Positions 1,369-41,474 of a stretch of 41,474 nucleotides of DNA are shown piece by piece. Position 1 is the stretch's first letter, and each line of letters begins with the position of its first letter. The notes beneath the pieces were generated by a model. It was not told the DNA's origin. It ran no database searches and was given only the letters and a program-made list of their open reading frames with translations. The stretch comes from a virus (lineage: Duplodnaviria; Heunggongvirae; Uroviricota; Caudoviricetes): positions 1 to 41,474 of the IMG/VR virus record IMGVR_UViG_2734482774_000012. One strand, written 5' to 3'. The translations under genes were made by a program, and so were the position numbers.

Positions 1369-1444
1369 GCCGATATAGCTCAGTTGGTAGAGCAGCGCAT
1401 TCGTAATGCGAAGGTCGTAGGTTCGACTCCTATTATCGGCACCA
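1369..1444 (+). tRNA. thrW: tRNA-Thr (anticodon CGU)
   Basis: 76-nt sequence GCCGATATAGCTCAGTTGGTAGAGCAGCGCATTCGTAATGCG...GGCACCA; manual cloverleaf gives anticodon CGT at positions 34-36, T-arm GGTTCGACTCC, 3' CCA; sits directly downstream of proA as thrW does. Confidence 0.9.
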
Positions 1445-1445
1445 T
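1399..1445. repeat. attL core: 47-bp direct repeat covering the 3' half of thrW
   Basis: ATTCGTAATGCGAAGGTCGTAGGTTCGACTCCTATTATCGGCACCAT is repeated exactly at 41404..41450; partial similarity continues a few bases beyond. Confidence 0.85.
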
Positions 1446-1458
1446 ATAAATCAATGAG

Positions 1459-2619
1459 TTACCTCACATTTAAGTAAACTACGTTCTCCTCTTGTGCCGT
1501 ATTTGTGCCATTGCGACTTATAATCGCATCGATTTTGCTCGCGTGCTCGGTGAGATGCCCGGCTGAAAGGTGGGCGTATCTTTGAACCATTTCGAGAGTT
1601 TCCCATCCTCCCATCTCTTTAAGTGCAAGAAGAGAGACACCGGACTGAACCAGCCAGCTTGCCCAGGTATGCCTCAGGTCATGGAAGCGGAAGTTGCTAA
1701 TGCCTGCCCGCTTTAACGCTCCCTTCCATGCCTTGTTGCTGTCGGTTCTCATCTTCCTTACCGCTGCTGTTTTTGTTCCGTCGCTTCGGTAGGCAGGTTT
1801 GGTGTGGACAAATACCCATCTCTTATGGAGCCCCTGCTGTTTTCTTAATATCTGGCATGCGGTTTCGTTAAGAGGAACTCCGATCGCATTGCCAGCTTTT
1901 GTTTCATCAGGGTGCATCCATGCCATTTTCTTATCCAGATCGACCTGTGACCACTCAAGGTCTGTAACGTTGGAACGGCGAAGGCCTGTCGTGATTGCAA
2001 ACATGACCACAGGGAAGAAGTGAGGAGCAATTTCTGCAAACAGGCGCTTCGATTCCTCCTCTGTAAGCCATCTGATGCGTCCATTCTTAACGCGTGGTGT
2101 TGATATTTTGGGTGCTCTGTCAAGCCATCCCCATTCAACAGCCATATTGAGAATGGCGCGAAGTATTGCCAGATGCCTCGTCTTCGTTCCTTTGCTTGCC
2201 AGCTTTGGTTTATACTCCGGCACCGGATTGCCAAGTCGCAAACACCTGTCCCGGCTCATCTCCCAGTTCAGGCGATGGCGGCGGTTTTCCATCCCGTCTA
2301 CCGCCTCCATTATTTTTTCTGTTGTTATGTCAGAGAGAATGGCTTCTCTGAAGTGCAACATCCAGAACGATATAATGCTCTTGTCATCATCAATGGACTT
2401 CTTATCCGATTTCTCACGCAGCCACCGTATGCAGGCTTCCTTGAATAGCTTTTTCGGTGATTCCCCGAGATTTTTTACTCTCCACGCTTCTGCTTTCAGA
2501 CGATCGTGAAGTTCTTGCGCTTGCCTTTTGTCCGATGTTTCAAGAGAGCGTCTAATTCTTGATCCATCTGGCGCGACGAAATCGCAGTGCCACGTGCCAC
2601 CGCGTAGTTTGATTGACAT
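1459..2619 (-). CDS. int: Tyrosine-type site-specific integrase
   Basis: 386-aa ORF, ATG start with strong RBS (AGGAGG); C-terminal HDLRHTWASWL...VQRYAHL motif typical of phage integrases (R-H-R-Y); adjacent to the tRNA att site. Confidence 0.9.
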   Translation of the reverse strand: MSIKLRGGTWHCDFVAPDGSRIRRSLETSDKRQAQELHDRLKAEAWRVKNLGESPKKLFKEACIRWLREKSDKKSIDDDKSIISFWMLHFREAILSDITTEKIMEAVDGMENRRHRLNWEMSRDRCLRLGNPVPEYKPKLASKGTKTRHLAILRAILNMAVEWGWLDRAPKISTPRVKNGRIRWLTEEESKRLFAEIAPHFFPVVMFAITTGLRRSNVTDLEWSQVDLDKKMAWMHPDETKAGNAIGVPLNETACQILRKQQGLHKRWVFVHTKPAYRSDGTKTAAVRKMRTDSNKAWKGALKRAGISNFRFHDLRHTWASWLVQSGVSLLALKEMGGWETLEMVQRYAHLSAGHLTEHASKIDAIISRNGTNTAQEENVVYLNVR

Positions 2620-10753: not shown

Positions 10754-11007
10754 AGCCCATTATCCCTGAGAGCTACCTGTAATGATTTTACTAATGCAAC
10801 AGCTTGATCCGGGCTCATTGAGACTGACATGTTAGGGGTCAACTCAACTTTTACTTGGAAGCTATTATTTCCTTGCTCATCAGACTGCATGTGATGCTCA
10901 AATTCATGGCGGTAAAAAGTAATGATTGTTTCAGCACGATCAGGCGTAATAAGAACTGATGTGGCGGTCATGTGCTGAGGTATGATTTTAATAGTGTTAT
11001 CTGACAT
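10741..11007 (-). CDS. Unrecognised soluble protein (88 aa) in the cI operon
   Basis: Internal ATG at 11007 has an AAAAAGGA RBS; the longest ORF (to 11148) has none. Stop overlaps the start of the 216-aa gene by 13 nt. Confidence 0.5.
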   Translation of the reverse strand: MSDNTIKIIPQHMTATSVLITPDRAETIITFYRHEFEHHMQSDEQGNNSFQVKVELTPNMSVSMSPDQAVALVKSLQVALRDNGLWKD

Positions 11008-18718: not shown

Positions 18719-19227
18719 GAGAACTAAACCTCACCAAAGAACAGCATGAGTGGCTGAATGGCTGGCTTGAACTGTGGGGCGCATGGGTTTATTCAGGTCG
18801 TCTGGAAAAGCGCATGAGCAGCGTAATAGCGAAGTTCATGGAGAGCGTAGAGCCGGGAAGAGTTATGACAAGGCCAATGTGCAATGATGATGATGGAATG
18901 TTGATTTCTCAGGTCGTCGATTCCGTCATGTACATTGACAAGAAAGCCTTTGGCATCCTCCTCAGCTACTACGCTCATGGTTCATCTAAGCGAGCAATTG
19001 CATCCTACTATCACGCGACTGCAAAGCCACGCAAGATGTGTGGACGTGGTGGCGAGGGATGGAGAAAACCTTCACTGGCAACCTGTAGAAACGAAATTGA
19101 CGACATCCTGAAAGCGTCGTTATTTGTTTTGTACCAGCCAATGCAAAATGCTTTCAAAATGCGTAAACGTGTTGAGAAAGTTAAGCATGTTGCTGTTAAA
19201 AGCCTTGACATGCAATTATCCATTTAG
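18709..19227 (+). CDS. Late-gene antiterminator Q-like protein (quuD / phage 82 type)
   Basis: Position between nin and lysis genes; motifs ELWGAW, [10 protein letters not shown], [15 protein letters not shown] resemble Q-like antiterminators of E. coli prophages (recollection); apparent GTG start. Confidence 0.6.
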
Positions 19228-19244
19228 CCATAATTAGAAGGTAA

Positions 19245-19287
19245 GCTGCCGTTAGTGACTCTTAAGTTGCAACGGTGGCTTTTTTTA
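19245..19287 (+). terminator. Intrinsic terminator candidate downstream of Q
   Basis: Imperfect 9-bp stem (GCTGCCGTT / AACGGTGGC, two G-U pairs, large loop) followed by TTTTTTT. Confidence 0.35.
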
Positions 19288-19290
19288 TTT

Positions 19291-19365
19291 GGGTCAGTCG
19301 TATAAAGGTCATTACGGAAGGCTGTTAACCTTCTTATCGTGGTTCGAGTCCACGCTGTCCCGCCA
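19291..19365 (+). tRNA. Phage-encoded tRNA-like gene (manual fold suggests anticodon GUU, Asn)
   Basis: 75 nt ending CCA; perfect anticodon stem GAAGG/CCTTC with loop CTGTTAA; T-arm CGTGG-TTCGAGT-CCACG; acceptor stem 6/7 pairs. Isotype unverified. Confidence 0.45.
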
Positions 19366-19370
19366 AACAT

Positions 19371-19446
19371 GCTGGTTTAGCTCCAATGGTAGAGCGGTCG
19401 CCTTGTAAGCGAATGGGTAGCGGTTCAAGTCCGTTAACCAGCACCA
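19371..19446 (+). tRNA. Phage-encoded tRNA-like gene (manual fold suggests anticodon UGU, Thr)
   Basis: 76 nt; perfect 7-bp acceptor stem GCTGGTT/AACCAGC, D-arm GCTC-CAATGGTA-GAGC, anticodon loop CTTGTAA, T-loop TTCAAGT, 3' ACCA. Confidence 0.55.
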
Positions 19447-19533
19447 TAACTGAGCCGTAGCCACTGGCCGTCCTGAATTTATCAGTGATAGTTACGCTGC
19501 GGCCTTCTACACATGACCTTCGTGAAAGCGGGT

Positions 19534-19568
19534 GGCAGGAGGTCGCGCTAACAACCTCCTGCCGTTTT
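19534..19568 (+). other. Stable hairpin upstream of the lysis genes
   Basis: GGCAGGAGGT / ACCTCCTGCC 10-bp stem with 10-nt loop followed by GTTTTGCCC; role unknown (possible late-leader terminator or processing site). Confidence 0.3.
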
Positions 19569-19688
19569 GCCCGTGCATATCGGTCACGAACAAATCTGAT
19601 TACTAAACACAGTAGCCTGGATTTGTTCTATCAGTAATCGACCTTATTCCTAATTAAATAGAGCAAATCCCCTTATTGGGGGTAAGAC

Positions 19689-20012
19689 ATGAAGATGCCA
19701 GAAAAACATGACCTGTTAGCCGCCATTCTCGCGGCAAAGGAACAAGGCATCGGGGCAATCCTTGCGTTTGCAATGGCGTACCTTCGCGGCAGATATAATG
19801 GCGGTGCGTTTACAAAAACAGTAATCGACGCAACGATGTGCGCCATTATCGCCTGGTTCATTCGTGACCTTCTCGACCTCGCCGGACTAAGTAGCAATCT
19901 CGCTTATATAACGAGCGTGTTCATCGGCTACATCGGTACTGACTCGATTGGTTCGCTTATCAAACGCTTCGCTGCTAAAAAAGCCGGAGTAGAAGATGGT
20001 GGAAATCAATAA
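19689..20012 (+). CDS. S: Holin (lambda S-type, class I, dual-start)
   Basis: [45 protein letters not shown]... nearly identical to lambda S107/S105; Met1 and Met3 both present. Confidence 0.95.
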
Positions 20013-20472
20013 TCAACGTAAGGCGTTCCTCGATATGCTGGCGTGGTCAGAGGGAACTGATAACGGACGTCAGAAAACCAGAAATCATGGTTATGACGTT
20101 ATTGTCGGTGGTGAACTCTTCACTGATTACTCCGATCACCCTCGCAAACTTGTCACGCTAAATCCAAAACTCAAATCAACAGCAGCCGGGCGCTACCAGC
20201 TTCTTTCCCGTTGGTGGGATTCCTATCGTAAGCAGCTTGGCCTGAAAGATTTCTCTCCGAAAAGCCAGGACGCTGTGGCACTGCAACAGATTAAAGAGCG
20301 TGGCGCTTTACCGATGATTGATCGCGGTGATATTCGTCAGGCAATCGACCGTTGCAGCAATATCTGGGCTTCACTGCCGGGCGCTGGTTATGGTCAGTTC
20401 GAGCATAAGGCTGACAGCCTGATTGCAAAATTCAAAGAAGCAGGCGGAACGGTCAGAGAGATTGAGGTATGA
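19996..20472 (+). CDS. R: Endolysin (lambda R-type lytic transglycosylase)
   Basis: [51 protein letters not shown]... nearly identical to lambda R. Confidence 0.95.
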
Positions 20473-20906
20473 GCAGAGTAACCGCGATTATCTCCGCTCT
20501 GGTTATCTGCATCATCGTTTGCCTGTCATGGGCTGTTAATCATTACCGTGATAACGCCATTACCTACAAAACCCAGCGCGATAAAGCCACGTACATCATC
20601 GCTGACATGCAGAAGCGTCAACGTGATGTAGCAGAACTCGACGCCAGATACACAAAGGAGCTTGCTGATGCTAACGCGACTATCGAAAGTCTCCGTGCTG
20701 ATGTTTCTGCTGGTCGTAAGCGCCTGCAAGTCGCCGCCACCTGTGCAAAGTCAACGACCGGAGCCAGCAGCATGGGCGATGGAGAAAGCCCAAGACTTAC
20801 AGCAGATGCTGAACTCAATTATTACCGTCTCCGAAGTGGAATCGACAGGATAACCGCGCAGGTTAACTACCTGCAGGAGTACATCAGGACGCAATGCCTG
20901 AAATAA
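20469..20906 (+). CDS. Rz: i-spanin Rz (145 aa)
   Basis: N-terminal [36 protein letters not shown] matches lambda Rz; C-terminal half divergent. Confidence 0.85.
20668..20853 (+). CDS. Rz1: o-spanin lipoprotein Rz1, embedded in Rz in the +1 frame
   Basis: ATG at 20668 with AGGAG RBS; lipobox LLVVSAC followed by a Pro-rich segment ([16 protein letters not shown]), as for lambda Rz1. Confidence 0.75.
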
Positions 20907-20937
20907 TTTTTTTGCAAATCACAAAGTCAATTTAATG

Positions 20938-20962
20938 ATCCTCGCGATGCGGGGCTTTTTTT
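20938..20962 (+). terminator. Intrinsic terminator candidate after the lysis cassette
   Basis: Short GC-rich hairpin CCTCGC-GAT-GCGGGG followed by CTTTTTTT. Confidence 0.4.
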
Positions 20963-21111
20963 ACATCTGAATTTCACAGCGCATCTCACGCGCATATTAC
21001 ATCACCCGAGCCTTTCAGAAAGTTGAGCCTGAGAACTGCCGTATATGGTGGCGACCATCTCGGGGCGGCTTTTCTGTGAGACAGGCTCACTTTCTAAAAG
21101 GTAAAGACGCT

Positions 21112-21630
21112 ATGAATCATCAATTGGCTAATCTCGATTTCCGGGACATGGTGGTTGTTTCTGGTGATCGCGTGATCACAACCTCCCGCAAGGTAGCAGC
21201 TTACTTCGACAAGCAGCATCACCACATCATTCAGAAAATCGAAAAGCTAGACTGTTCGGATGAATTTCTAACCAGCAACTTTTCGCGGGTTACCTATGAA
21301 CACAAGGGTAATCAGTATGTTGAATATGAAATTTCCAAAGACGGCGCGATGTACATCATCATGTCGTTTACCGGCAAAAAAGCTGCCGCCATCAAAGAGG
21401 CGTTTATCAAAGCATTTAATTGGATGCGTGACAGGCTGATGGAGATGGCTCACTCATACCAAAGAGAGCACAACGAGTTAATGCTGGAGTTCATGAAGGA
21501 AAAGGATGTTGCCAGTATGTCAGGACGCTTGCTGAACCGCTGGGGCAGGATCAAAAAACCGCAACTCATAGCAAGAATCGAAAGGCTTGAGCAGCAGGCG
21601 CAAATATCGATCCCCGGACTGCCAAAGTGA
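21112..21630 (+). CDS. Rha-family phage regulatory protein
   Basis: N-terminal VITTSRKVAAYFDKQHHHIIQKIEKL resembles the phage pRha domain; start placed at the internal ATG with an RBS. Confidence 0.65.
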   Translation: MNHQLANLDFRDMVVVSGDRVITTSRKVAAYFDKQHHHIIQKIEKLDCSDEFLTSNFSRVTYEHKGNQYVEYEISKDGAMYIIMSFTGKKAAAIKEAFIKAFNWMRDRLMEMAHSYQREHNELMLEFMKEKDVASMSGRLLNRWGRIKKPQLIARIERLEQQAQISIPGLPK

Positions 21631-21913
21631 CCATTACAAAGCCCATCTACGGGTGGGCTTGATAATGAAACCGTGATTTACATCCCCACAATCCGGGTAT
21701 GTAAAAGATAGTTCAGGCGAGAACAGATTTAACTAAATCTGTGCACCACCAGTTACGGCAGTACCACGAAGCAACCCAAGCCAGTAAGTGGGGAAATAAC
21801 ACTGGCAGCCACTGAAAGATGAACCTCCTGCCTTATGGCAAAAAAGATTCTTTGTGGTGGCGGACTGATGGAAAGACATCCTAATCAAGCAACCACTCCA
21901 CAGGGTCATAATT

Positions 21914-22294
21914 ATGAACGACCAGCAAATCGAAAAAGAAATCGTTGAGAAAGGCAAAACGGCACCGCGAATCACCCCGCAGCACATCGAAGACGTGATT
22001 AAAAGCGAGCATTACTTTACTGCTTATGATGGACGAAATGGTGCCATTTCCAGCAACGAATATTGTGGCAGGGAAAAACCAGAAGAAGGCGATCGTGATT
22101 TATCACCATTGAAGTTGCTCACTTTCTGCGTACTGGTGCTGAAGAATGGCTTCACCGTCACCGGAGAGAGTGCCTGTGCAAGCCCGGAAAACTTTGATGC
22201 AGAAATTGGTCGGAAGATTTCCCGGCAAAATGCTGTAAACAAAATCTGGATGCTCGAAGGTTACTTGCTGAAGCAGAAGCTAAGCGAGAAGTAG
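21914..22294 (+). CDS. Hypothetical phage protein (126 aa), possibly Gp49-like
   Basis: ATG-initiated ORF between Rha and the terminase genes; family assignment is a weak recollection. Confidence 0.45.
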   Translation: MNDQQIEKEIVEKGKTAPRITPQHIEDVIKSEHYFTAYDGRNGAISSNEYCGREKPEEGDRDLSPLKLLTFCVLVLKNGFTVTGESACASPENFDAEIGRKISRQNAVNKIWMLEGYLLKQKLSEK

Positions 22295-22397
22295 TTATTA
22301 CAAAAGCCATTCCCTACAGAGTGGCTTTGATAATGGCTTATACCCTACACGGGATAACTTAACTGATATCCCTTTTAACGGATAAACGGAGCCAACA

Positions 22398-22640
22398 ATG
22401 GCAGAGATTATTCCCATGACTGAAGAACAGAAATTCCAGTTAGAGATTTACAAACTGGTCATGAACCAGAACGCAGCCGCGGAGGAAGCATTTCAATTCA
22501 TCGGCACTGACGAGCTGAAGCTTGAGCTATTCAAAATTCACTTCCAGTCAGGCGGCGCTAATTCAGATATCACGACCCGCACAATCGAAGCGGTGCGTAA
22601 ATCGAAGGAAGCGTTAGACCTGTTCACTACCGGAGCATAA
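22398..22640 (+). CDS. Hypothetical protein (80 aa)
   Basis: ATG-initiated ORF immediately upstream of the small terminase gene. Confidence 0.45.
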   Translation: MAEIIPMTEEQKFQLEIYKLVMNQNAAAEEAFQFIGTDELKLELFKIHFQSGGANSDITTRTIEAVRKSKEALDLFTTGA

Positions 22641-22642
22641 AC

Positions 22643-23086
22643 ATGGCGCGCCCAACAAAGTATCAAGAGGCGTATGCCGAACAGGCACGCAAACTGTGCT
22701 TGCTGGGCTATACAGACGCCGAACTCGCTGACTTCTTTGAAGTTAGCGAGGCAACAATCAACAATTGGAAATTGGAATATCCGGAGTTTTTAGAGTCCAT
22801 AAAAAAGGGTAAGGCCGTCGCTGATGCAGAAGTTAGTGATCGTCTTTATCAACGCGCTATGGGCTTCGTGGCTCCAGACATCGATATTCGTGTTATTGAA
22901 AACAGAATTGTCGAAACTCCGCTTAAGAAGTATTACCCGCCTGATACAACTGCCGCCATCTTCTGGCTCAAGAACAGACAGAAAGATAAATGGCGAGAGA
23001 AGCAGGACGTCAACCATACATCTGATGACGGCTCCATGACTCCAAAAGCTCCAGTGTATAACATTGTAAAAAGCGAGACGCAATGA
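22643..23086 (+). CDS. Terminase small subunit (147 aa)
   Basis: HTH-like N-terminus (LGYTDAELADFFEVSEATINNWK) and position immediately upstream of, and overlapping, the large terminase gene. Confidence 0.6.
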   Translation: MARPTKYQEAYAEQARKLCLLGYTDAELADFFEVSEATINNWKLEYPEFLESIKKGKAVADAEVSDRLYQRAMGFVAPDIDIRVIENRIVETPLKKYYPPDTTAAIFWLKNRQKDKWREKQDVNHTSDDGSMTPKAPVYNIVKSETQ

Positions 23087-24561
23087 CAGAGCAATGCAGC
23101 ATTCCTGAAGCGTTTGAGGAATACCTGCAGCCAGCCAGATTCAAGGTAGCTTATGGCGGGCGAGGTTCCGCCAAGACGCGAACGTTCATAACAATCCTCC
23201 TCAATAACGTCATCTATCACGGATGGAAGCTTATCTGTTTTCGTGAGTACATGAAGTCCATCAAGGAATCATGCTATGCGGAAATTGTTGAAGAGATTAA
23301 CCGCCGAAACCTCCACTCACTGGTGACTATCAATAAGACAGAGATATTTGCCAATAGCGGCGGACGTATCAGTTTCGACTTCCTGCGCCTTAACGTGGAA
23401 AATATCAAAGGTTACGCAAACTTCGATGCCGCCCTTGTAGAGGAAGCAGAAAACGTATCAAAGGACTCATGGGAAACGCTTATCCCAACGGTACGTAAAG
23501 AGTTCTACAGCGCTGAGTATGGTCGAGTGGTTGAGTCGGAAATATGGGTTGCATACAACCCGAAGAACAGACTCAGCGATACACATCAGCGCTTTGTTAC
23601 GAATCGCATATACCCCGACTATGACGAAAACGGTAATCGCTACTGCATCGTCAAGCAGATCAACTACACAGCTAATCCATGGTTCCCGGAAACTCTCCGC
23701 AGGGATATGGAGATTATGAAGAAGGCTAATCACGAGCTTTATCGGCATGTGTATCTTGGTGAACCGGTGGGGGCATCAGAAATGGCTATTATCAAGTTTG
23801 CATGGTTAGAGGCTGCAACAGACGCCCACATTAAGCTCGGATGGAAAGCTAAAGGTGCAGTGATTGCAGCGCATGACCCGTCAGACACCGGCCCAGATGC
23901 CAAAGGATATGCAGTGCGACATGGATCAGTTGTTAAGCGCGTATGTGAAGGGCTGCTCATGGATATAAACGAGGGTGCTGATTGGGCATCTTCATTGGCG
24001 GTAATCGATGATGTTGATCATTTCCTGTTTGATGGAGATGGACTTGGAGCAGGGCTTCGTCGACAGATAACAGACTATTTCAGTGGAAAGAAAGTCACCG
24101 TAACAATGTTTAAAGGTAGTGAATCGCCATTCGACGAAGATGCTCCATATCAGGCTGGGGCATGGACTGATGAAGTTGTGCAGGGTGATAACGTCCGCAC
24201 TATTGGAGATGTATTCCGAAACAAGCGAGCGCAGTTCTATTACACGCTGGCTGACAGGCTTTATCGAACATACCGGGCGGTAGAGCATGGTGAATACGCC
24301 GACCCTGATGAAATGCTTAGCTTTGACAAAGAGGCTATTGGAGAGAATATCCTCAACAAGCTATTCGCAGAGCTAACGCAGATCCAACGCAAATTCAACG
24401 GCAACGGAAAGCTTGAGCTGATGACCAAAGTCGAAATGAAGCAGAAGCTCGGTATTCCATCTCCTAACCTGGCTGATGCGCTGATGATGTGTATGCATTG
24501 CCCGGAGTCGGCTGCGAAACCCGACTATTCCAGTTACTCAATTCCTTGTGGTGTAGGTTGA
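23083..24561 (+). CDS. Terminase large subunit (492 aa)
   Basis: Walker A YGGRGSAKT near the N-terminus, ATPase plus nuclease domain size; ATGA overlap with TerS. Confidence 0.85.
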   Translation: MTEQCSIPEAFEEYLQPARFKVAYGGRGSAKTRTFITILLNNVIYHGWKLICFREYMKSIKESCYAEIVEEINRRNLHSLVTINKTEIFANSGGRISFDFLRLNVENIKGYANFDAALVEEAENVSKDSWETLIPTVRKEFYSAEYGRVVESEIWVAYNPKNRLSDTHQRFVTNRIYPDYDENGNRYCIVKQINYTANPWFPETLRRDMEIMKKANHELYRHVYLGEPVGASEMAIIKFAWLEAATDAHIKLGWKAKGAVIAAHDPSDTGPDAKGYAVRHGSVVKRVCEGLLMDINEGADWASSLAVIDDVDHFLFDGDGLGAGLRRQITDYFSGKKVTVTMFKGSESPFDEDAPYQAGAWTDEVVQGDNVRTIGDVFRNKRAQFYYTLADRLYRTYRAVEHGEYADPDEMLSFDKEAIGENILNKLFAELTQIQRKFNGNGKLELMTKVEMKQKLGIPSPNLADALMMCMHCPESAAKPDYSSYSIPCGVG

Positions 24562-34479: not shown

Positions 34480-36593
34480 TGGCCTATAGTCGCGAACAGT
34501 TGATGACGGCGTTAAGGAATGCTGATGCTGCCGGCGATACTGAGGGAGCACGTCGCATTGCTCAGATGCTGTCTTCTGGTGATCAATCCACTCAAAACCA
34601 ATCGCAGCCAGAAGAACAATCTCTGGTAGGAAAAGCCACTGACTGGCTCACTGGTGGTCAAAGCGCAGGGCAAATTGCAGAACAGGCTGGCCGTGGTCTG
34701 GTAAACATACCATTTGACGTATTGCAGGGTGGCGCAAGTCTGATTAATGCAATCAGCCAGGGACTTGGTGGCCCCAAGGTTTTGGATGATGTCTATCGTC
34801 CAGTCGATCGACCGACAGACCCTTACGCGCAAGCCGGTGAAACAATTGGTGGGTATCTCCTGCCAATTGGCACAGCGGCAAAAGCTGCTGGAGCGCCAGC
34901 AAAGCTCGCAGGAGACATCGGTTCCGCAGGAAACATGATTGCCGGTTCTCTTGCTGATGCTGCAAATCAGGAGGGTGATTTTGCACAAAATGCTGCCATT
35001 AACGGTGGTATCAATATTGGTGCTCAAGGCGTTCTTTCAGGTGTCGGGCGCGTTATTGCGCCAAGGGTTTCACAGGCTCTTGGTGGTGCAGCACTGAATT
35101 CTGCTAATGATGTTTCCATGATGGCAAAGTCAGGTGCTGGGCGTCAGTCAATTGCCAGTCAGGCCGCTAATGTGTCCGAAGATGTAGCAAAAGCGGCTGA
35201 GTCTGCTGGAATTGATATAAACGCATTAACACCGGGAATGCGATCTGGAAGTCGTGGAATTGCACAAGCCGAAGGCGCATTGGCATCAACACCAGGGATT
35301 GTTCAGGATGCCCATCAGGCAGCATTTAACGAAATATCATCAAAGTTAAGTCGAAACCTTGATGAATTTGGGGCCGCATCTGGAACTGCATCAGAAAAAA
35401 GTGCGGCTATAAAACAAAGGATTCTTCAAAATCTTGATCAGATGAAGGATGCCGAGCGCGCGGCATGGGATGACGTGCGGTCAACAATGCCAAATCAAAA
35501 AGCAAGAATGCTAAATGGTAATGCCGTTATTCAGGCAGAGCGATCTGCTGGCATACCGCTTACTCCTGAAATGAAACAGTTTGTTCAGGCAAACAATCAA
35601 GGTGGAGTAACATTTGATGGCATGAAAGCATGGAGAGCGAAATTTGCTGATGCGGAGCAAAAATATAAGCGTAGCGGAGAGGCAAATGCGGCAAGGAGAG
35701 CAGGGGAAATACGCCGGGCAATTACTGATGATATGCGCACAATGGCGGAAAACGGCGGATTTCTTGATGACTGGCAAAAAGCTAATGATCTGTCTAAAGC
35801 GAGGTTATCAGCACAAGAGAGTGCAGAGTCTGTTTTCGGGCGTGATTTGGCAACAGATGCACTGATTACGAATGGAGTAAAATCTCTTCAATCATCGTCA
35901 GCTAAAGGTCTTAATGGTCCTGCTGGATTCCATTCTATGATCCGCGCGCTGCCAGAATCAGAGCGTGTTCCTGCTATATCATCAATGTTGCAAGATGCTA
36001 TCTCGCATGGTGTACGTGGTGGCAAAGCTGATGCAGCAGGAATTAACCATATCGCAGGGATACTTACCCCACAAAATGTAAAAGCCATTAGCAGATATTC
36101 CTCAGAACTCGGAAGAATTGCTGATGCATATGGCACTCTTGCAAGAGCAGCAGTGAAACCTCAGCAGTATATTGAAAGAACAGGGAGAACTGCCAATGTA
36201 CTACGCGATCTGGATGCCGGTTTATCCAACGTCACATCAACAGTGTTAAATGCAATTGCCAACTCAACATCAGGTGCCATTGTTGGTGGAGCAGGAGGGG
36301 GCATTGCAGGCGCTGTCGCAGGTGCTTTAGTTGGCGCCGGGTTAAAAGGTGCTGTATCTAAAATTGCCACCACGCGTAGCGGTCGATATGCGATAGAGAA
36401 AGCAGTTCAAGAAGCCACGAAAGCAGTAAGAGCTGGCGGAAGTAAAGAAGCATTAGCGGCGGCGGAACGCAGATTTATGGCAAATAAAGCCGCCGTAAAA
36501 GCAATACGCGATGCTATTGGTAGCGATGAATTCAATCGCTTGTCGAGAGCTGGTATTGTCGCCTCGTTAAGCGGTATGAATGAATATGAATAG
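34479..36593 (+). CDS. Ejection protein (P22 gp16-like, 704 aa)
   Basis: Positional analogue; Ala/Gly-rich segments; last gene of the rightward structural operon. Confidence 0.55.
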
Positions 36594-37773: not shown

Positions 37774-37920
37774 ATGAAAGTTAAGACATTAAGGATGCCA
37801 GAATGGCTGGAAAAGGCTTTGGAGCAGTCCGCGAAAAAGGATGATCGGTCGTTCAGTAATGAGGTATTGAGGAGACTAAAGGAGTCAGTAGCTAAGGATG
37901 GAATTGTTTGTCCAGAATGA
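37774..37920 (+). CDS. arc: Arc-like ribbon-helix-helix repressor (48 aa)
   Basis: Manually translated MKVKTLRMPEWLEKALEQSAKKDDRSFSNEVLRRLKESV...; RHH pattern; AAAGGAG RBS; immediately upstream of ant. Confidence 0.6.
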   Translation: MKVKTLRMPEWLEKALEQSAKKDDRSFSNEVLRRLKESVAKDGIVCPE

Positions 37921-37986: not shown

Positions 37987-38910
37987 ATGAAAAGTATAGC
38001 AACAGCAGTATCTACTATCAACGTGCCATTCCACGGCGCAGAGCTTTATGTCGTCAATCACAACGGTGAGCCGTACACCCCAATGAAACCTATCGTTGAG
38101 GGAATGGGGCTAGACTGGAAATCTCAACATAAGAAGATTTCTCAACGCTTCTCGAAGGGTATGGTGGAAATCACCATACCTTCTGCCGGTGGGGTGCAAG
38201 CCATGATTTGTATGGCTTTACGAAAATTGGCAGCTTGGTTGAACAGCATCAGTCCTAACAAAGTCCGCCCTGAAATCCGCGACAAGGTAATCCAGTATCA
38301 GGAAGAGTGTGACGATGTGCTCTACGAATACTGGACTAAAGGCTATGTGGTTAACCCGCGCAAAGCTAAAAAGGCGTTGCCTGGTAAAATCACCACTGAA
38401 CAGCAGGAAGCTATTAAACAGCTCGTCATGAGTCGCGGTCAGTCTCTGCCAAAAGAAAAACAGGCGAAGGCGATGATCACCATGTGGTCGTCACTGAAAT
38501 CCCATTTTGGATGTTCGTACAAAGAAATTAGTGAGGAGCAGTTTACCGAAGCACTGTCACTTGCAGCTCGAGTTCCACTTGAAGGTGAGTTCATCGGCAA
38601 ACAAGAGAAGAAAACCAACGAGCTTTCTGCAAAAGAAGCAAACAGCCTTGTATGGTTATGGGATTATGCCAACCGCTCACAGGCATTATTCCGCGAACTG
38701 TATCCGGCATTAAAACAAATTCAATCGAACTATTCCGGCAGATGCTACGACTACGGTCATGAGTTCTCGTATGTTATCGGAATGGCGAGGGACGTTTTAA
38801 TCAATCACACACGAGATGTTGATATTAATGAGCCAGACGGACCAACGAATCTTTCCGCATGGATGAGACTTAAGAATAAAGAATTACCTCCTTCAGTACA
38901 TAACTACTGA
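37987..38910 (+). CDS. ant: Antirepressor Ant (307 aa)
   Basis: Position after mnt/arc; size and N-terminal domain typical of P22-type antirepressors (recollection). Confidence 0.75.
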   Translation: MKSIATAVSTINVPFHGAELYVVNHNGEPYTPMKPIVEGMGLDWKSQHKKISQRFSKGMVEITIPSAGGVQAMICMALRKLAAWLNSISPNKVRPEIRDKVIQYQEECDDVLYEYWTKGYVVNPRKAKKALPGKITTEQQEAIKQLVMSRGQSLPKEKQAKAMITMWSSLKSHFGCSYKEISEEQFTEALSLAARVPLEGEFIGKQEKKTNELSAKEANSLVWLWDYANRSQALFRELYPALKQIQSNYSGRCYDYGHEFSYVIGMARDVLINHTRDVDINEPDGPTNLSAWMRLKNKELPPSVHNY

Positions 38911-41403: not shown

Positions 41404-41450
41404 ATTCGTAATGCGAAGGTCGTAGGTTCGACTCCTATTATCGGCACCAT
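41404..41450. repeat. attR core: 47-bp direct repeat of the thrW 3' end
   Basis: Exact copy of 1399..1445; the preceding ~400 bp is AT-rich and non-coding (attP arm). Confidence 0.85.
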
Positions 41451-41474
41451 TAAAATCAATAAGTTACACATCAT

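What the first reader, a model, noticed from the sequence alone, without database searches (positions are those of the whole stretch)
21633..22335. Repeated 35-40 bp hairpin element closing two consecutive accessory genes
Immediately after the Rha stop (21633..21667) and after the following 126-aa gene (22297..22335) are related elements: ATTACAAAGCCCA-loop-TGGGCTTGATAATG and ATTACAAAAGCCA-loop-TGGCTTTGATAATG. Each forms a 7-bp stem-loop with conserved flanks but has no U-run, so they are not classic intrinsic terminators. A shared 3' element on adjacent accessory genes suggests a reused cassette boundary, a protein or RNA recognition site, or a processing signal.
Basis: seen in the sequence. 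Interest (0 to 1): 0.4.

Follow-up and report, generated by a model that had tools for sequence, protein, structure and literature searches.

The report
Conserved cistron-end hairpin in phage late operons
The two look-alike hairpins are real copies of a widespread, apparently undescribed structured element that sits just after stop codons in the late operons of enterobacterial temperate phages; it most likely acts in the late mRNA as a processing or stability signal, and it also serves as a short shared sequence at which phages swap genes.

Summary
The window is a P22-like prophage in tRNA-Thr. Each element starts 1 nt after a stop codon (Rha; gp49/66-family gene). The fold is larger than the 7-bp stem described: a 5-8 bp A/U-rich lower helix, a 2x2 internal loop CA/GA, a 9-10 bp upper helix and a small loop (-20.6 kcal/mol each).

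Neither copy has a U-tract and neither matches any Rfam family. Copies occur in hundreds of phage contigs. The second element with its 51-nt tail is in 2547 of 5426 complete E. coli genomes. Orientation is always that of late transcription.

Both helices covary while CA/GA stays fixed. G.U pairs are common and A.C pairs are absent, so the late-sense strand is the one that folds.

Homology breakpoints pile up at the element edges, and the interval between the two copies holds different genes in different phages. The cassette-boundary idea therefore holds.

The element is not specific to accessory genes. The same motif sits between the major tail gene and the next gene in a large siphovirus group, found in nearly all of 240 loci chosen by protein alone. 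Some relatives carry ordinary terminators at that position.

Best reading: a cistron-end RNA hairpin for mRNA processing or 3' protection, possibly an RNase III site. The function is inferred, not shown.

The parts
21632..21667 (+). Hairpin copy 1 (type T1). Lower helix CAUUA/UAAUG, internal loop CA/GA, 9-bp upper helix AAGCCCAUC/GGUGGGCUU, loop UACG closed by C-G. It starts 1 nt after the Rha stop codon (21628-21630).
   Evidence: I13; -20.6 kcal/mol, z -4.67; 59.1 bits
22296..22335 (+). Hairpin copy 2 (type T2). Lower helix UAUUA/UAAUG (extendable to 22293-22338), internal loop CA/GA, 10-bp upper helix AAAGCCAUUC/GAGUGGCUUU with one U.G pair, loop CCUACA. It starts 1 nt after the stop codon of the gp49/66-family gene (22292-22294).
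   Evidence: I7; -20.6 kcal/mol, z -5.34; 52.7 bits
22336..22386 (+). Conserved 51-nt tail that travels with copy 2. It contains a small hairpin GGGAUA/UAUCCC (22351-22372) followed by UUUU. Homology to other phages ends at 22386, just before the ribosome-binding site of the next gene.
   Evidence: (95 HSPs end at 22386)
21668..21882 (+). Conserved non-coding leader that follows copy 1. It includes a second hairpin at 21677-21705 and a sub-module of about 135 nt (21746-21882) that is shared widely, including by P22, which lacks the downstream gene.
   Evidence: I18; breakpoints 21738-21758 and 21879-21885
21112..21630 (+). Rha-family regulator gene (upstream cistron of copy 1).
   Evidence: (PF09669 1e-23, PF10549 9e-24)
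21914..22294 (+). 126-aa gene of the N4 Gp49 / Sf6 gene 66 family. It occupies the variable slot between the two hairpins.
   Evidence: (PF13876 1.8e-34)
22398..22640 (+). DUF2560 gene, the first cistron after copy 2. The small terminase gene follows at 22643-23086.
20940..20965 (+). Canonical intrinsic terminator after Rz (stem CCTCGC/GCGGGG plus a T-run). In many relatives hairpin type T2 follows this terminator directly.
   Evidence: (annotated as terminator in epsilon34 and HK106)

Best explanation
The two elements belong to a family of structured hairpins, 35-40 nt at the core and up to about 60 nt with an outer helix. They are placed 1-10 nt after stop codons in the late operons of temperate phages of Enterobacterales. 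They fold in the late-sense strand, most simply in the Q-antiterminated polycistronic late mRNA.

I propose that they mark the end of a cistron. After cleavage at or near the A/U-rich lower helix and the CA/GA internal loop, or after endonuclease cuts further downstream, the G+C-rich upper hairpin stays as a 3' cap. This cap shields the upstream message from 3' exonucleases and uncouples its level from that of the downstream genes. RNase III is the prime candidate for the cleavage, because the tail-gene version has about 20 helical rungs.

The lower part of the element is nearly identical between otherwise unrelated phages. It therefore also acts, as a by-product, as a patch of short homology where phage and host recombination systems exchange the genes on either side. 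This is why it bounds the two accessory genes in this window.

Status of each step:
- Shown: recurrence, structure, covariation, strand bias, position after stop codons, coincidence with mosaic breakpoints.
- Inferred: folding as RNA rather than as single-stranded DNA, stabilisation or processing, and involvement of RNase III.
For: Structure under selection:
- T1 variants: 99% of cells paired, 5 pairs with double changes, 0 of 500 shuffles as good.
- T3 and other variants: lower-helix pair 5-33 changes A-U to G-C through G.U.
- All types together: 9 of 14 pairs show double changes.
- RNAalifold on 132 distinct intergenic regions chosen only by the neighbouring protein recovers the same fold plus an outer helix. 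15 of 18 pairs show compensatory changes.
- In a scan that left the internal loop free, it is CA/GA in 117 of 121 copies. The lower helix meanwhile varies among CAUUA/UAAUG, CAAAA/UUUUG, UAGUA/UACUG and UAUCA/UGAUA.

Strand:
- G.U pairs are frequent and A.C pairs absent in the upper helix.
- The reverse complement folds less well for most variants.
- No locus carries copies in both orientations, and T1 always precedes T2/T3.
- Most copies with an identifiable upstream gene have Rz upstream on the same strand.

Position:
- The copy lies 1-10 nt after a stop codon in most cases.
- It is present in 78 of 80 protein-anchored loci between the major tail gene and the DUF6246 gene, 19-20 nt before the ATG, with mutated versions in the other 2.
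- It is also present in 121 of 160 further loci by a strict filter. Many of the rest are the same hairpin with one stem mismatch.
- Relatives have ordinary U-tract terminators at that same position. This fits a role at the 3' end of the upstream message.
- One complete genome, CobraSix, carries the element after both Rha and the major tail gene.

Recombination:
- Megablast breakpoints fall at 21632 and 21670.
- 170 HSPs start at 22288-22297 and 17 at 21631-21632.
- Many phage matches are the 36-nt element alone.
- Flanks fall into 32 upstream and 22 downstream sequence clusters in many combinations.
- The T1-T2 interval holds nothing or at least six different small genes.
- One T2/T3 hybrid element shows a crossover inside the element.
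- Viable hybrids of the closely related phage Gally arise by recombination in short regions of partial homology, one of them in the Rz region (PMC9928086).
Against: - There is no transcript-level evidence. No 3' or 5' ends were mapped, and no RNase dependence is known.
- G.T-tolerant pairing cannot separate RNA from single-stranded DNA of the same strand.
- Copy 1 has only about 16 helical rungs, which is short for RNase III.
- The most common tail-gene variant (CATTCCA) loses one lower-helix pair.
- Many sequences compared are close relatives, so cell counts overstate the number of independent events.
- Several alignments were built from pattern- or energy-selected copies. avoids this bias.
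- The near-invariant lower-stem sequence could reflect recent spread rather than constraint.
Confidence: 0.5

Rival explanations
1. It is only a boundary (linker) sequence. A short conserved stretch persists because it mediates homologous or SSAP-driven exchange of neighbouring modules. The hairpin has no function of its own.
For: Breakpoints pile up at the element edges. Flanks are reassorted. The slot between the two copies is variable. A hybrid element exists. The concept is established for lambdoid phages: bsq features are annotated in Sf6, the idea is cited in PMC3029335, and experimental hybrids are reported in PMC9928086.
Against: A linker needs sequence identity, not base pairing. Here the sequence of both helices changes while pairing is kept. 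G.U pairs occur but A.C pairs do not, which is strand-specific. The element is fixed at the major-tail/DUF6246 junction, where the two flanking genes stay the same.
Confidence: 0.1
2. It is a regulatory operator or insulator acting on translation. The hairpin, through its CA/GA loop, binds a host or phage protein, or it blocks ribosome re-initiation. This sets the translation level of the downstream gene or the termination of the upstream one.
For: The distance to the downstream ATG is constant at 14-21 nt, with the ribosome-binding site just 3' of the hairpin, at the tail-gene junction. The outer helix includes the upstream stop codon. The internal loop is invariant while the helices vary.
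Against: In this window the copies lie 246 nt and 62 nt from the next start codon, and the downstream genes differ widely. The only constant relation is to the upstream stop codon. No candidate binding protein is shared by all carriers.
Confidence: 0.15
3. It is a weak or factor-dependent transcription terminator or pause signal. It attenuates transcription by RNA polymerase that lacks the Q modification, for example in the lysogen, while Q-modified polymerase reads through.
For: Relatives carry canonical terminators at the equivalent position after the major tail gene. The upper stem is stable and G+C-rich. Type T2 often lies right after the Rz terminator.
Against: No U-tract follows any type. 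The conserved 3' flank is GAUAAUG. Conservation of the lower helix and the CA/GA loop is not explained by termination.
Confidence: 0.1
4. It is a DNA-level hairpin. It is extruded or folded in single-stranded DNA and recognised by a structure-specific recombinase or nuclease, so it would be an attC-like cassette site or a replication/recombination signal.
For: It is an imperfect palindrome placed at the 3' end of exchangeable genes. The basal part is conserved and the apical part is variable but paired, as in attC sites. G.T pairs are also tolerated in DNA hairpins.
Against: The attC core sites RYYYAAC/GTTRRRY are absent (sequence). No dedicated recombinase travels with the element. Carriers include podoviruses and siphoviruses with different integrases and terminases. 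It is fixed at a junction between two essential tail genes where no cassettes are exchanged. Orientation always matches transcription.
Confidence: 0.05
5. It is a selfish miniature mobile element (REP- or MITE-like) that spreads by insertion.
For: The 36-nt element occurs alone between otherwise unrelated flanks. It is present in about half of complete E. coli genomes.
Against: There are only 1-3 copies per phage genome and 1-5 per bacterial genome, as expected for one per prophage region. Orientation is always the same. Copies are confined to late operons just after stop codons. No target-site duplication or transposase is seen. The K-12 cryptic prophages DLP12 and Qin lack it.
Confidence: 0.05

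Closest known systems
RNase III processing hairpins of phage polycistronic mRNAs (T7 R sites such as R1.1; lambda sib and the N-leader site). Comparison from general knowledge, not tested here.
   Same: Intercistronic position. Irregular hairpin with an upper stem of about 10 bp, an internal loop and a lower stem. About 20 rungs in the tail-gene version. After a cut in the lower part, a stable hairpin would remain at the 3' end of the upstream message.
   Different: No cleavage data exist. The internal loop is a symmetric 2x2 CA/GA, not the asymmetric loop of T7 sites. Copy 1 here is only about 16 rungs. There is no sequence similarity.
REP (repetitive extragenic palindromic) elements of E. 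coli, acting as 3' stabilisers of upstream cistrons (for example malE-malF). From general knowledge.
   Same: Imperfect palindromes of 35-40 nt just after stop codons inside operons, with no U-tract. The proposed role is as an exonuclease barrier.
   Different: REPs are chromosomal, number in the hundreds, occur in both orientations and in clusters, and are linked to RAYT transposases. This family is phage-borne, has 1-3 copies per genome and one orientation. There is no sequence similarity.
C(UUCG)G / UNCG-tetraloop intercistronic hairpins of phage T4 (Tuerk et al. 1988; from memory).
   Same: Copy 1 and most T1 copies have a C(UACG)G loop of UNCG type, lie between cistrons of a phage operon, and are very stable.
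   Different: T2, T3 and many tail-gene variants have other loops. The conserved features here are the lower helix and the CA/GA loop, not the tetraloop.
Boundary sequences (bsq) of lambdoid phages (Clark et al. 2001, HK620; Casjens et al. 2004, Sf6).
   Same: Short sequences conserved between otherwise different phages and located at mosaic junctions.
   Different: The bsq2-bsq7 features annotated in Sf6 lie elsewhere. None covers the Sf6 copies, which lie at about 37837-37870 and 38501-38538. Boundary sequences are not defined by a covarying secondary structure.
Integron attC sites.
   Same: Imperfect inverted repeat at the 3' end of exchangeable genes. The base is conserved and the centre is variable but paired.
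   Different: No RYYYAAC/GTTRRRY cores and no integron integrase. The element is much shorter, is also found between essential tail genes, and exchange looks homology-driven.

Membership tests
Intrinsic (Rho-independent) terminator | Stable G+C-rich stem-loop | tested here: met
   Upper helix of 9-10 bp, -20.6 kcal/mol for each copy
Intrinsic (Rho-independent) terminator | U-tract immediately 3' of the stem | tested here: not met
   The 3' flank is GAUAAUG(A/G) in all types. The copies are not flagged by the terminator scan.
Rfam families (any) | Match to a curated covariance model | tested here: not met
   cmscan of 19000-24000 at E<=1 finds only two tRNAs and one chance snoRNA hit
REP / BIME elements | Extragenic imperfect palindrome of about 35-40 nt after a stop codon | tested here: met
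REP / BIME elements | High copy number, dispersed over the host chromosome, both orientations, often in clusters | tested here: not met
   1-3 copies per phage locus in a single orientation. 1-5 places per E. coli genome, median 1. Only 2 copies in the window.
Integron attC | Core sites R'' RYYYAAC and R' GTTRRRY at the ends of the inverted repeat | tested here: not met
   The ends are (C/U)AUU(A/G)CA and GA(U/C)AAUG. No GTTRRRY is seen in any variant.
Integron attC | Association with an IntI integrase and attI, and recombination as folded single-stranded DNA | not tested
   No integron integrase was looked for systematically. Carriers are ordinary lambdoid phages with diverse integrases.
Lambdoid boundary sequences (bsq) | Short sequence conserved between phages whose flanks on one or both sides are unrelated | tested here: met
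Lambdoid boundary sequences (bsq) | Identity with one of the described bsq elements | tested here: not met
   Sf6 bsq2-bsq7 lie at other coordinates. No paper holds the sequence.
RNase III processing site | Roughly two turns of mostly double-stranded RNA, often with an internal loop | tested here: inconclusive
   The tail-gene version has about 20 rungs in three helices. Copy 2 here has about 20. Copy 1 has only about 16.
RNase III processing site | Cleavage by RNase III in vivo or in vitro | not testable with these tools
   Needs RNA end mapping in rnc+ and rnc- hosts, or an in vitro assay
UNCG-tetraloop hairpins | C(UNCG)G loop | tested here: inconclusive
   Met by copy 1 and most T1 copies (C-UACG-G). 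Not met by copy 2, T3 or many others.
CRISPR repeat / RNA anti-CRISPR mimic | Similarity of stem and handle to a host CRISPR repeat | not tested
   By eye only, against repeats recalled from memory: GAUAA..AAACCG after T1 recalls the I-E handle AUAAACCG. Stem length and sequence differ, and T2/T3 lack it. Not pursued.

The most novel reading that the evidence does not exclude
The CA/GA-loop hairpin is a dedicated punctuation mark of late polycistronic mRNAs. A specific factor would recognise it through the conserved internal loop and A/U-rich lower helix; RNase III is the leading candidate, but another host or phage RNA-binding protein is possible. This would set the relative amounts of virion, lysis and accessory proteins. 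The same element would double as the portable homology that lets lambdoid phages trade accessory genes as cassettes. That would make it a homology-driven counterpart of integron attC sites, present in about half of E. coli genomes.
Probability: 0.25. Interest if true: 0.75.

Novelty: new variant of a known kind. Interest (0 to 1): 0.55.

Why it matters
If the function is confirmed, three things follow.

1. **A new RNA motif.** It would add a well-defined, very common motif to phage biology. The T2 unit alone is in 47% of complete E. coli genomes. The element is unannotated in the reference genomes of P22, Sf6, HK620, HK97 and epsilon34, and absent from Rfam.

2. **Control of late protein ratios.** It would give a concrete handle on how long late operons set different amounts of neighbouring gene products, for example major tail protein versus the protein encoded next.

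3. **Mosaic boundaries.** It would offer a mechanistic reason why mosaic boundaries in the lysis-to-packaging interval fall where they do. A functional RNA element is kept identical across phages and therefore becomes a crossover point.

There are practical uses as well. It could serve as a marker for annotating late-operon junctions and variable gene slots in prophages, and as a compact insulator or stabiliser part for synthetic operons.

Tried and rejected
- **Chance repeat.** Rejected: 0 expected matches and hundreds of copies elsewhere.
- **Classic terminator, either strand.** No U-tract. The minus-strand fold is weaker, and no minus-strand genes converge here.
- **Rfam family, tRNA-like or sRNA.** No hit.
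- **Described boundary sequence.** The Sf6 bsq features lie elsewhere. Searching papers for the sequence strings returned only unrelated primer hits.
- **Third copy in the window.** The model hit at 10758-10784(-) has the flanks only, has no upper helix, and lies inside a coding region, so it is chance. The flank-only hit in CobraSix at 34778-34793 is the same kind.
- **IHF site.** By eye the flank holds TATCAA, but the TTR part of the consensus is missing.
- **Promoter.** GATAAT resembles a -10 box, but there is no usable -35 and the scan finds nothing on the + strand.
- **The final ATG as a start codon.** It opens only 3- to 20-codon ORFs that differ between contexts.
- **CRISPR-repeat mimic.** See the membership test.
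- **Chi site.** A few T1 variants contain GCTGGTGG, but the window's copies and T2/T3 do not.
- **K-12 prophages DLP12 and Qin.** Checked as a route to published 3'-end maps; they lack the element.
- **Wider sampling through DUF2560 in genome contigs.** Only 7 near-identical loci were returned.
- **Literature searches** for late-mRNA processing in lambdoid phages and for a hairpin after major tail genes found nothing specific.
Full report
**1. Context**

The window is an integrated P22-like (Lederbergvirus-type) prophage of about 40 kb.
- A 64-nt direct repeat that includes the 3' part of tRNA-Thr(CGU) lies at 1399-1462 and 41404-41467.
- The region of interest lies in the late operon. In order it contains:
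  - holin, endolysin and Rz (19689-20906);
  - an intrinsic terminator (20940-20965);
  - a Rha-family gene (21112-21630);
  - a 126-aa gene of the N4 Gp49 / Sf6 gene 66 family (21914-22294);
  - DUF2560 (22398-22640);
  - small and large terminase genes.
- The closest named relatives are Klebsiella phage phiKp_30, then Gally, APC_JM3.2 and JEP4, followed by Sf6 and HK620.

**2. The observation**

Both sequences are present as quoted. The joint pattern has 2 matches against 0 expected. Each copy begins 1 nt after a stop codon, counting the paired C/U at 21632 and 22296.

- a lower helix, CAUUA/UAAUG in copy 1 and UAUUA/UAAUG in copy 2, where it can extend to 8 bp;
- a symmetric 2x2 internal loop, CA opposite GA;
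- an upper helix of 9 bp (copy 1, loop UACG closed by C-G) or 10 bp (copy 2).

Each folds at -20.6 kcal/mol, with z-scores of -4.7 and -5.3. No U-tract follows either copy, the terminator scan ignores them, and no Rfam family matches. A covariance model built later finds only these two copies in the window.

**3. Recurrence**

- When only the hairpin core is specified, the flanks still come out as CATT(A/C)CAA and TGATAATG in nearly all of 251 copies.
- Three main types exist:
  - T1 (36 nt);
  - T2 (40 nt);
  - T3 (37 nt, TATTGCAGAGGCCATTCAATGAGTGGTCTCGACAATG), which is the form in P22, epsilon34 and HK620.
- Among named phages the element occurs in P22-like podoviruses, HK97, HK106, mEp phages, ES18, SPN3UB, Stx phages and Enterobacter phage CobraSix.
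- T2 plus its 51-nt tail is found in 2547 of 5426 complete E. coli genomes, at 1-5 places each. The exact T1 variant is in 604 genomes.
- None of the records inspected annotates the element. The Sf6 record lists boundary sequences bsq2-bsq7, but none lies at these positions.
- No paper in the searchable library contains the sequence.

**4. The structure is under selection, on the late-sense strand**

| Alignment | Result |
|---|---|
| T1 variants | 99% of cells paired; 5 pairs with changes on both sides; 0 of 500 shuffles as good |
| T3 and others | 5 pairs with double changes, including lower-helix pair 5-33 (A-U, G.U, G-C) |
| All types | 9 of 14 pairs with double changes |

- Sliding the 3' partner by 1-3 columns drops pairing from about 99% to 26-52%.
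- G.U pairs are common and A.C pairs are absent in the upper helix. The few unpaired cells lie mostly in the lower helix.
- For most variants the reverse complement folds less well.
- No locus carries copies in both orientations, and T1 always precedes T2 or T3.
- Most copies with an identifiable upstream gene have Rz upstream on the same strand.

Some of these alignments came from pattern- and energy-filtered copies, which favours the structure. Section 6 removes that bias.

**5. The element marks mosaic junctions**

- Megablast homology to Sf6 starts at window 21632. Homology to CobraSix, which shares only Rha, ends at 21670.
- Against all fetched loci, 170 HSPs start at 22288-22297 and 17 at 21631-21632. 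Ends cluster at 21879-21885, 22386 and 22635-22640.
- In the phage database many matches are the 36-nt T1 alone.
- Around the element, the 150-nt flanks fall into 32 upstream and 22 downstream clusters, in many combinations.
- About half of the loci carry two copies. The T1-T2 interval is 159-816 nt. It holds no gene, or a 45-aa, 56-59-aa, 71-aa or 80-aa ORF, or one of several gp49/66 variants.
- One element has a T2 left arm and a T3 right arm, which indicates a crossover inside the element.
- Gally is a close relative of this prophage. Viable hybrids of Gally with a lambda-like phage arise by recombination in short regions of partial homology, one of them in the Rz region (PMC9928086).

The exchange looks homology-driven. 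Nothing suggests a dedicated site-specific system.

**6. The element is not specific to accessory genes**

Variants with other upper stems led to a second context.
- In a large group of siphoviruses the same motif lies between the major tail protein gene (phrog_853, E = 3e-76) and the DUF6246 gene. The tape-measure gene follows.
- A pattern that fixes only the flanks and two G-C pairs returned 60 contigs. Of 61 copies, 57 lie directly upstream of a DUF6246 homologue (39-60% identity). The 30 distinct free apical sequences all fold into the same hairpin.

Three samples were then chosen by the protein alone:

| Sample | Result |
|---|---|
| 80 loci | 78 carry the hairpin 19-20 nt before the ATG; the other 2 have slightly mutated copies |
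| 160 further loci | 121 pass a strict filter; many of the rest are the Erwinia-type copy with one stem mismatch |

- In that scan the internal loop was left free. It is CA/GA in 117 of 121 copies.
- The lower helix varies among CAUUA/UAAUG, CAAAA/UUUUG, UAGUA/UACUG, UAUCA/UGAUA and others.
- RNAalifold on the 132 distinct 65-nt regions before the ATG recovers the same fold plus a third, outer helix that includes the stop codon of the tail gene. 15 of 18 pairs show compensatory changes. This version has about 20 helical rungs.
- The complete CobraSix genome has two copies on the late strand, one after Rha and one after the major tail gene.
- Relatives (SPN3UB, SB28, P400, ZX4, Mannheimia 587AP2) have ordinary U-tract terminators at the same position after the tail gene.
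- Other copies lie just before holin or just before the small terminase gene.

**7. Interpretation**

The constant features are:
- late-sense orientation;
- a start 1-10 nt after a stop codon;
- a stable G+C-rich upper helix of 8-10 bp;
- an A/U-only lower helix;
- a fixed CA/GA loop.

The distance to the next start codon is not constant: 14-21 nt at the tail junction, but 62 and 246 nt in this window. This points to a role at the 3' end of the upstream cistron in the late mRNA.

I commit to a cistron-end processing or stability signal. A cut at the weak lower part, or cuts further downstream, would leave the upper hairpin as a 3' cap against exonucleases. The overall shape resembles the RNase III sites of T7 and lambda (general knowledge). 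RNase III is the first enzyme to test, but this step is inferred. A plain exonuclease barrier, as with REP elements, is equally possible.

The recombination role follows from sequence conservation and is well supported as a pattern.

My confidence by step:
- about 0.8 for a selected strand-specific structure;
- about 0.85 for a recombination junction;
- about 0.4-0.5 for mRNA stabilisation or processing;
- about 0.3 for RNase III specifically.

**8. Rivals**

- **Pure linker.** Contradicted by covariation and by fixation at a junction that is not exchanged.
- **Translational operator or insulator.** Fits the tail junction but not the distances in this window.
- **Weak terminator or pause.** There is no U-tract, and the conserved lower part is left unexplained.
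- **attC-like or other DNA hairpin.** The core sites are absent, there is no recombinase, and the element also lies between essential genes.
- **Mobile REP/MITE.** Copy number, orientation and distribution all argue against it.

**9. Novelty**

The kind of element is known: intercistronic hairpins that process or stabilise phage and bacterial operon mRNAs, and short conserved sequences at mosaic boundaries. This particular family, with its CA/GA loop, its two conserved genomic niches and its very wide distribution, does not appear in Rfam, in the reference annotations inspected or in the searchable literature. I therefore rate it a new variant of a known kind, of moderate to good interest. The main limitation is the complete lack of transcript-level evidence.

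Noticed in passing
window 1399-1462 and 41404-41467; tRNA-Thr(CGU) at 1369-1444: A 64-nt direct repeat (95% identical) that includes the 3' part of tRNA-Thr. These are the attL and attR of a prophage of about 40.0 kb integrated in a thrW-type tRNA gene, so the window holds a whole prophage with both host junctions.
   Followed up: partly
window 19291-19446: tRNA-Asn(GTT) and tRNA-Thr(TGT) genes lie between the late-promoter region and the holin gene. The same arrangement is annotated in Sf6 and attributed there to phage 21.
   Followed up: no
window 21668-21913: A 246-nt non-coding leader lies between hairpin 1 and the gp49/66-family gene. A sub-module of about 135 nt (21746-21882) is conserved in many phages and is retained in P22, which lacks the gene. 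Breakpoints cluster at 21738-21758 and 21879-21885. There is no Rfam hit, the fold is only weakly better than shuffles (z -1.8 on +, -2.8 on -), and the function is unknown.
   Followed up: partly
window 21677-21705: A second hairpin, UUUACAUCCCC/GGGUAUGUAAA, lies 9 nt after hairpin 1. It belongs to one of two alternative sequences that follow T1+AAACCG in different phages.
   Followed up: partly
window 22336-22386: A 51-nt spacer after hairpin 2 is almost invariant across phages. It contains GGGAUA(N10)UAUCCC followed by UUUU, a possible weak terminator or second structure. Homology stops exactly before the ribosome-binding site of whichever gene follows.
   Followed up: partly
L277 3149-3184 (CobraSix); L035 7865-7900; several IMG/VR loci: A minority of T1-type copies contain a true Chi octamer GCTGGTGG in the 3' arm. 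One is a palindromic double Chi, GCCACCAGCTGGTGGC. From general knowledge, this orientation would be active for RecBCD entering from the packaging end. The window's own copies differ from Chi by 2 or more bases.
   Followed up: no
IMG/VR locus listed (sequence CATCACAAAAGCCATTCCCTACAGAGTGGTCTCGACAATG): A hybrid element with a T2 left arm and a T3 right arm, so the base of the upper helix no longer pairs. It looks like a crossover within the shared central CCATTC...GAGTGG.
   Followed up: partly
L348 (SB28), L349 (P400), L350 (ZX4), L351 (Mannheimia 587AP2): In relatives that lack the hairpin, the junction between the major tail gene and DUF6246 holds a canonical bidirectional terminator followed by 2-5 small reverse-strand genes (HicAB in the Mannheimia phage). 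This junction is therefore also a hot spot for inserted accessory genes.
   Followed up: partly
window 10758-10784 (-); L434 34778-34793: Covariance-model hits consisting of the two flanks only (CATTACA...GATAATG) with no upper helix. The window hit lies inside a coding region and the CobraSix hit lies within the annotated CDS 34745-35377. E = 0.03-0.05; judged to be chance.
   Followed up: yes
L335 13282-13320 and 14299-14337 (-): Two identical copies of a pattern match, CATTACAAAGGGCCCTATCAACTAGGGTCCTTGATAATG, lie 1 kb apart in a contig. Each is followed by a CA-rich stretch that becomes a (CA)n run after one copy. They are not next to DUF6246. This is a different context and remains unexplained.
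   Followed up: no
L283-L286 (genome contigs): Sequences identical to the E. coli phage DUF2560 region appear in MAGs labelled Cellvibrionaceae, Bacillota and Collinsella. This is most likely mis-binned or contaminant phage contigs.
   Followed up: no
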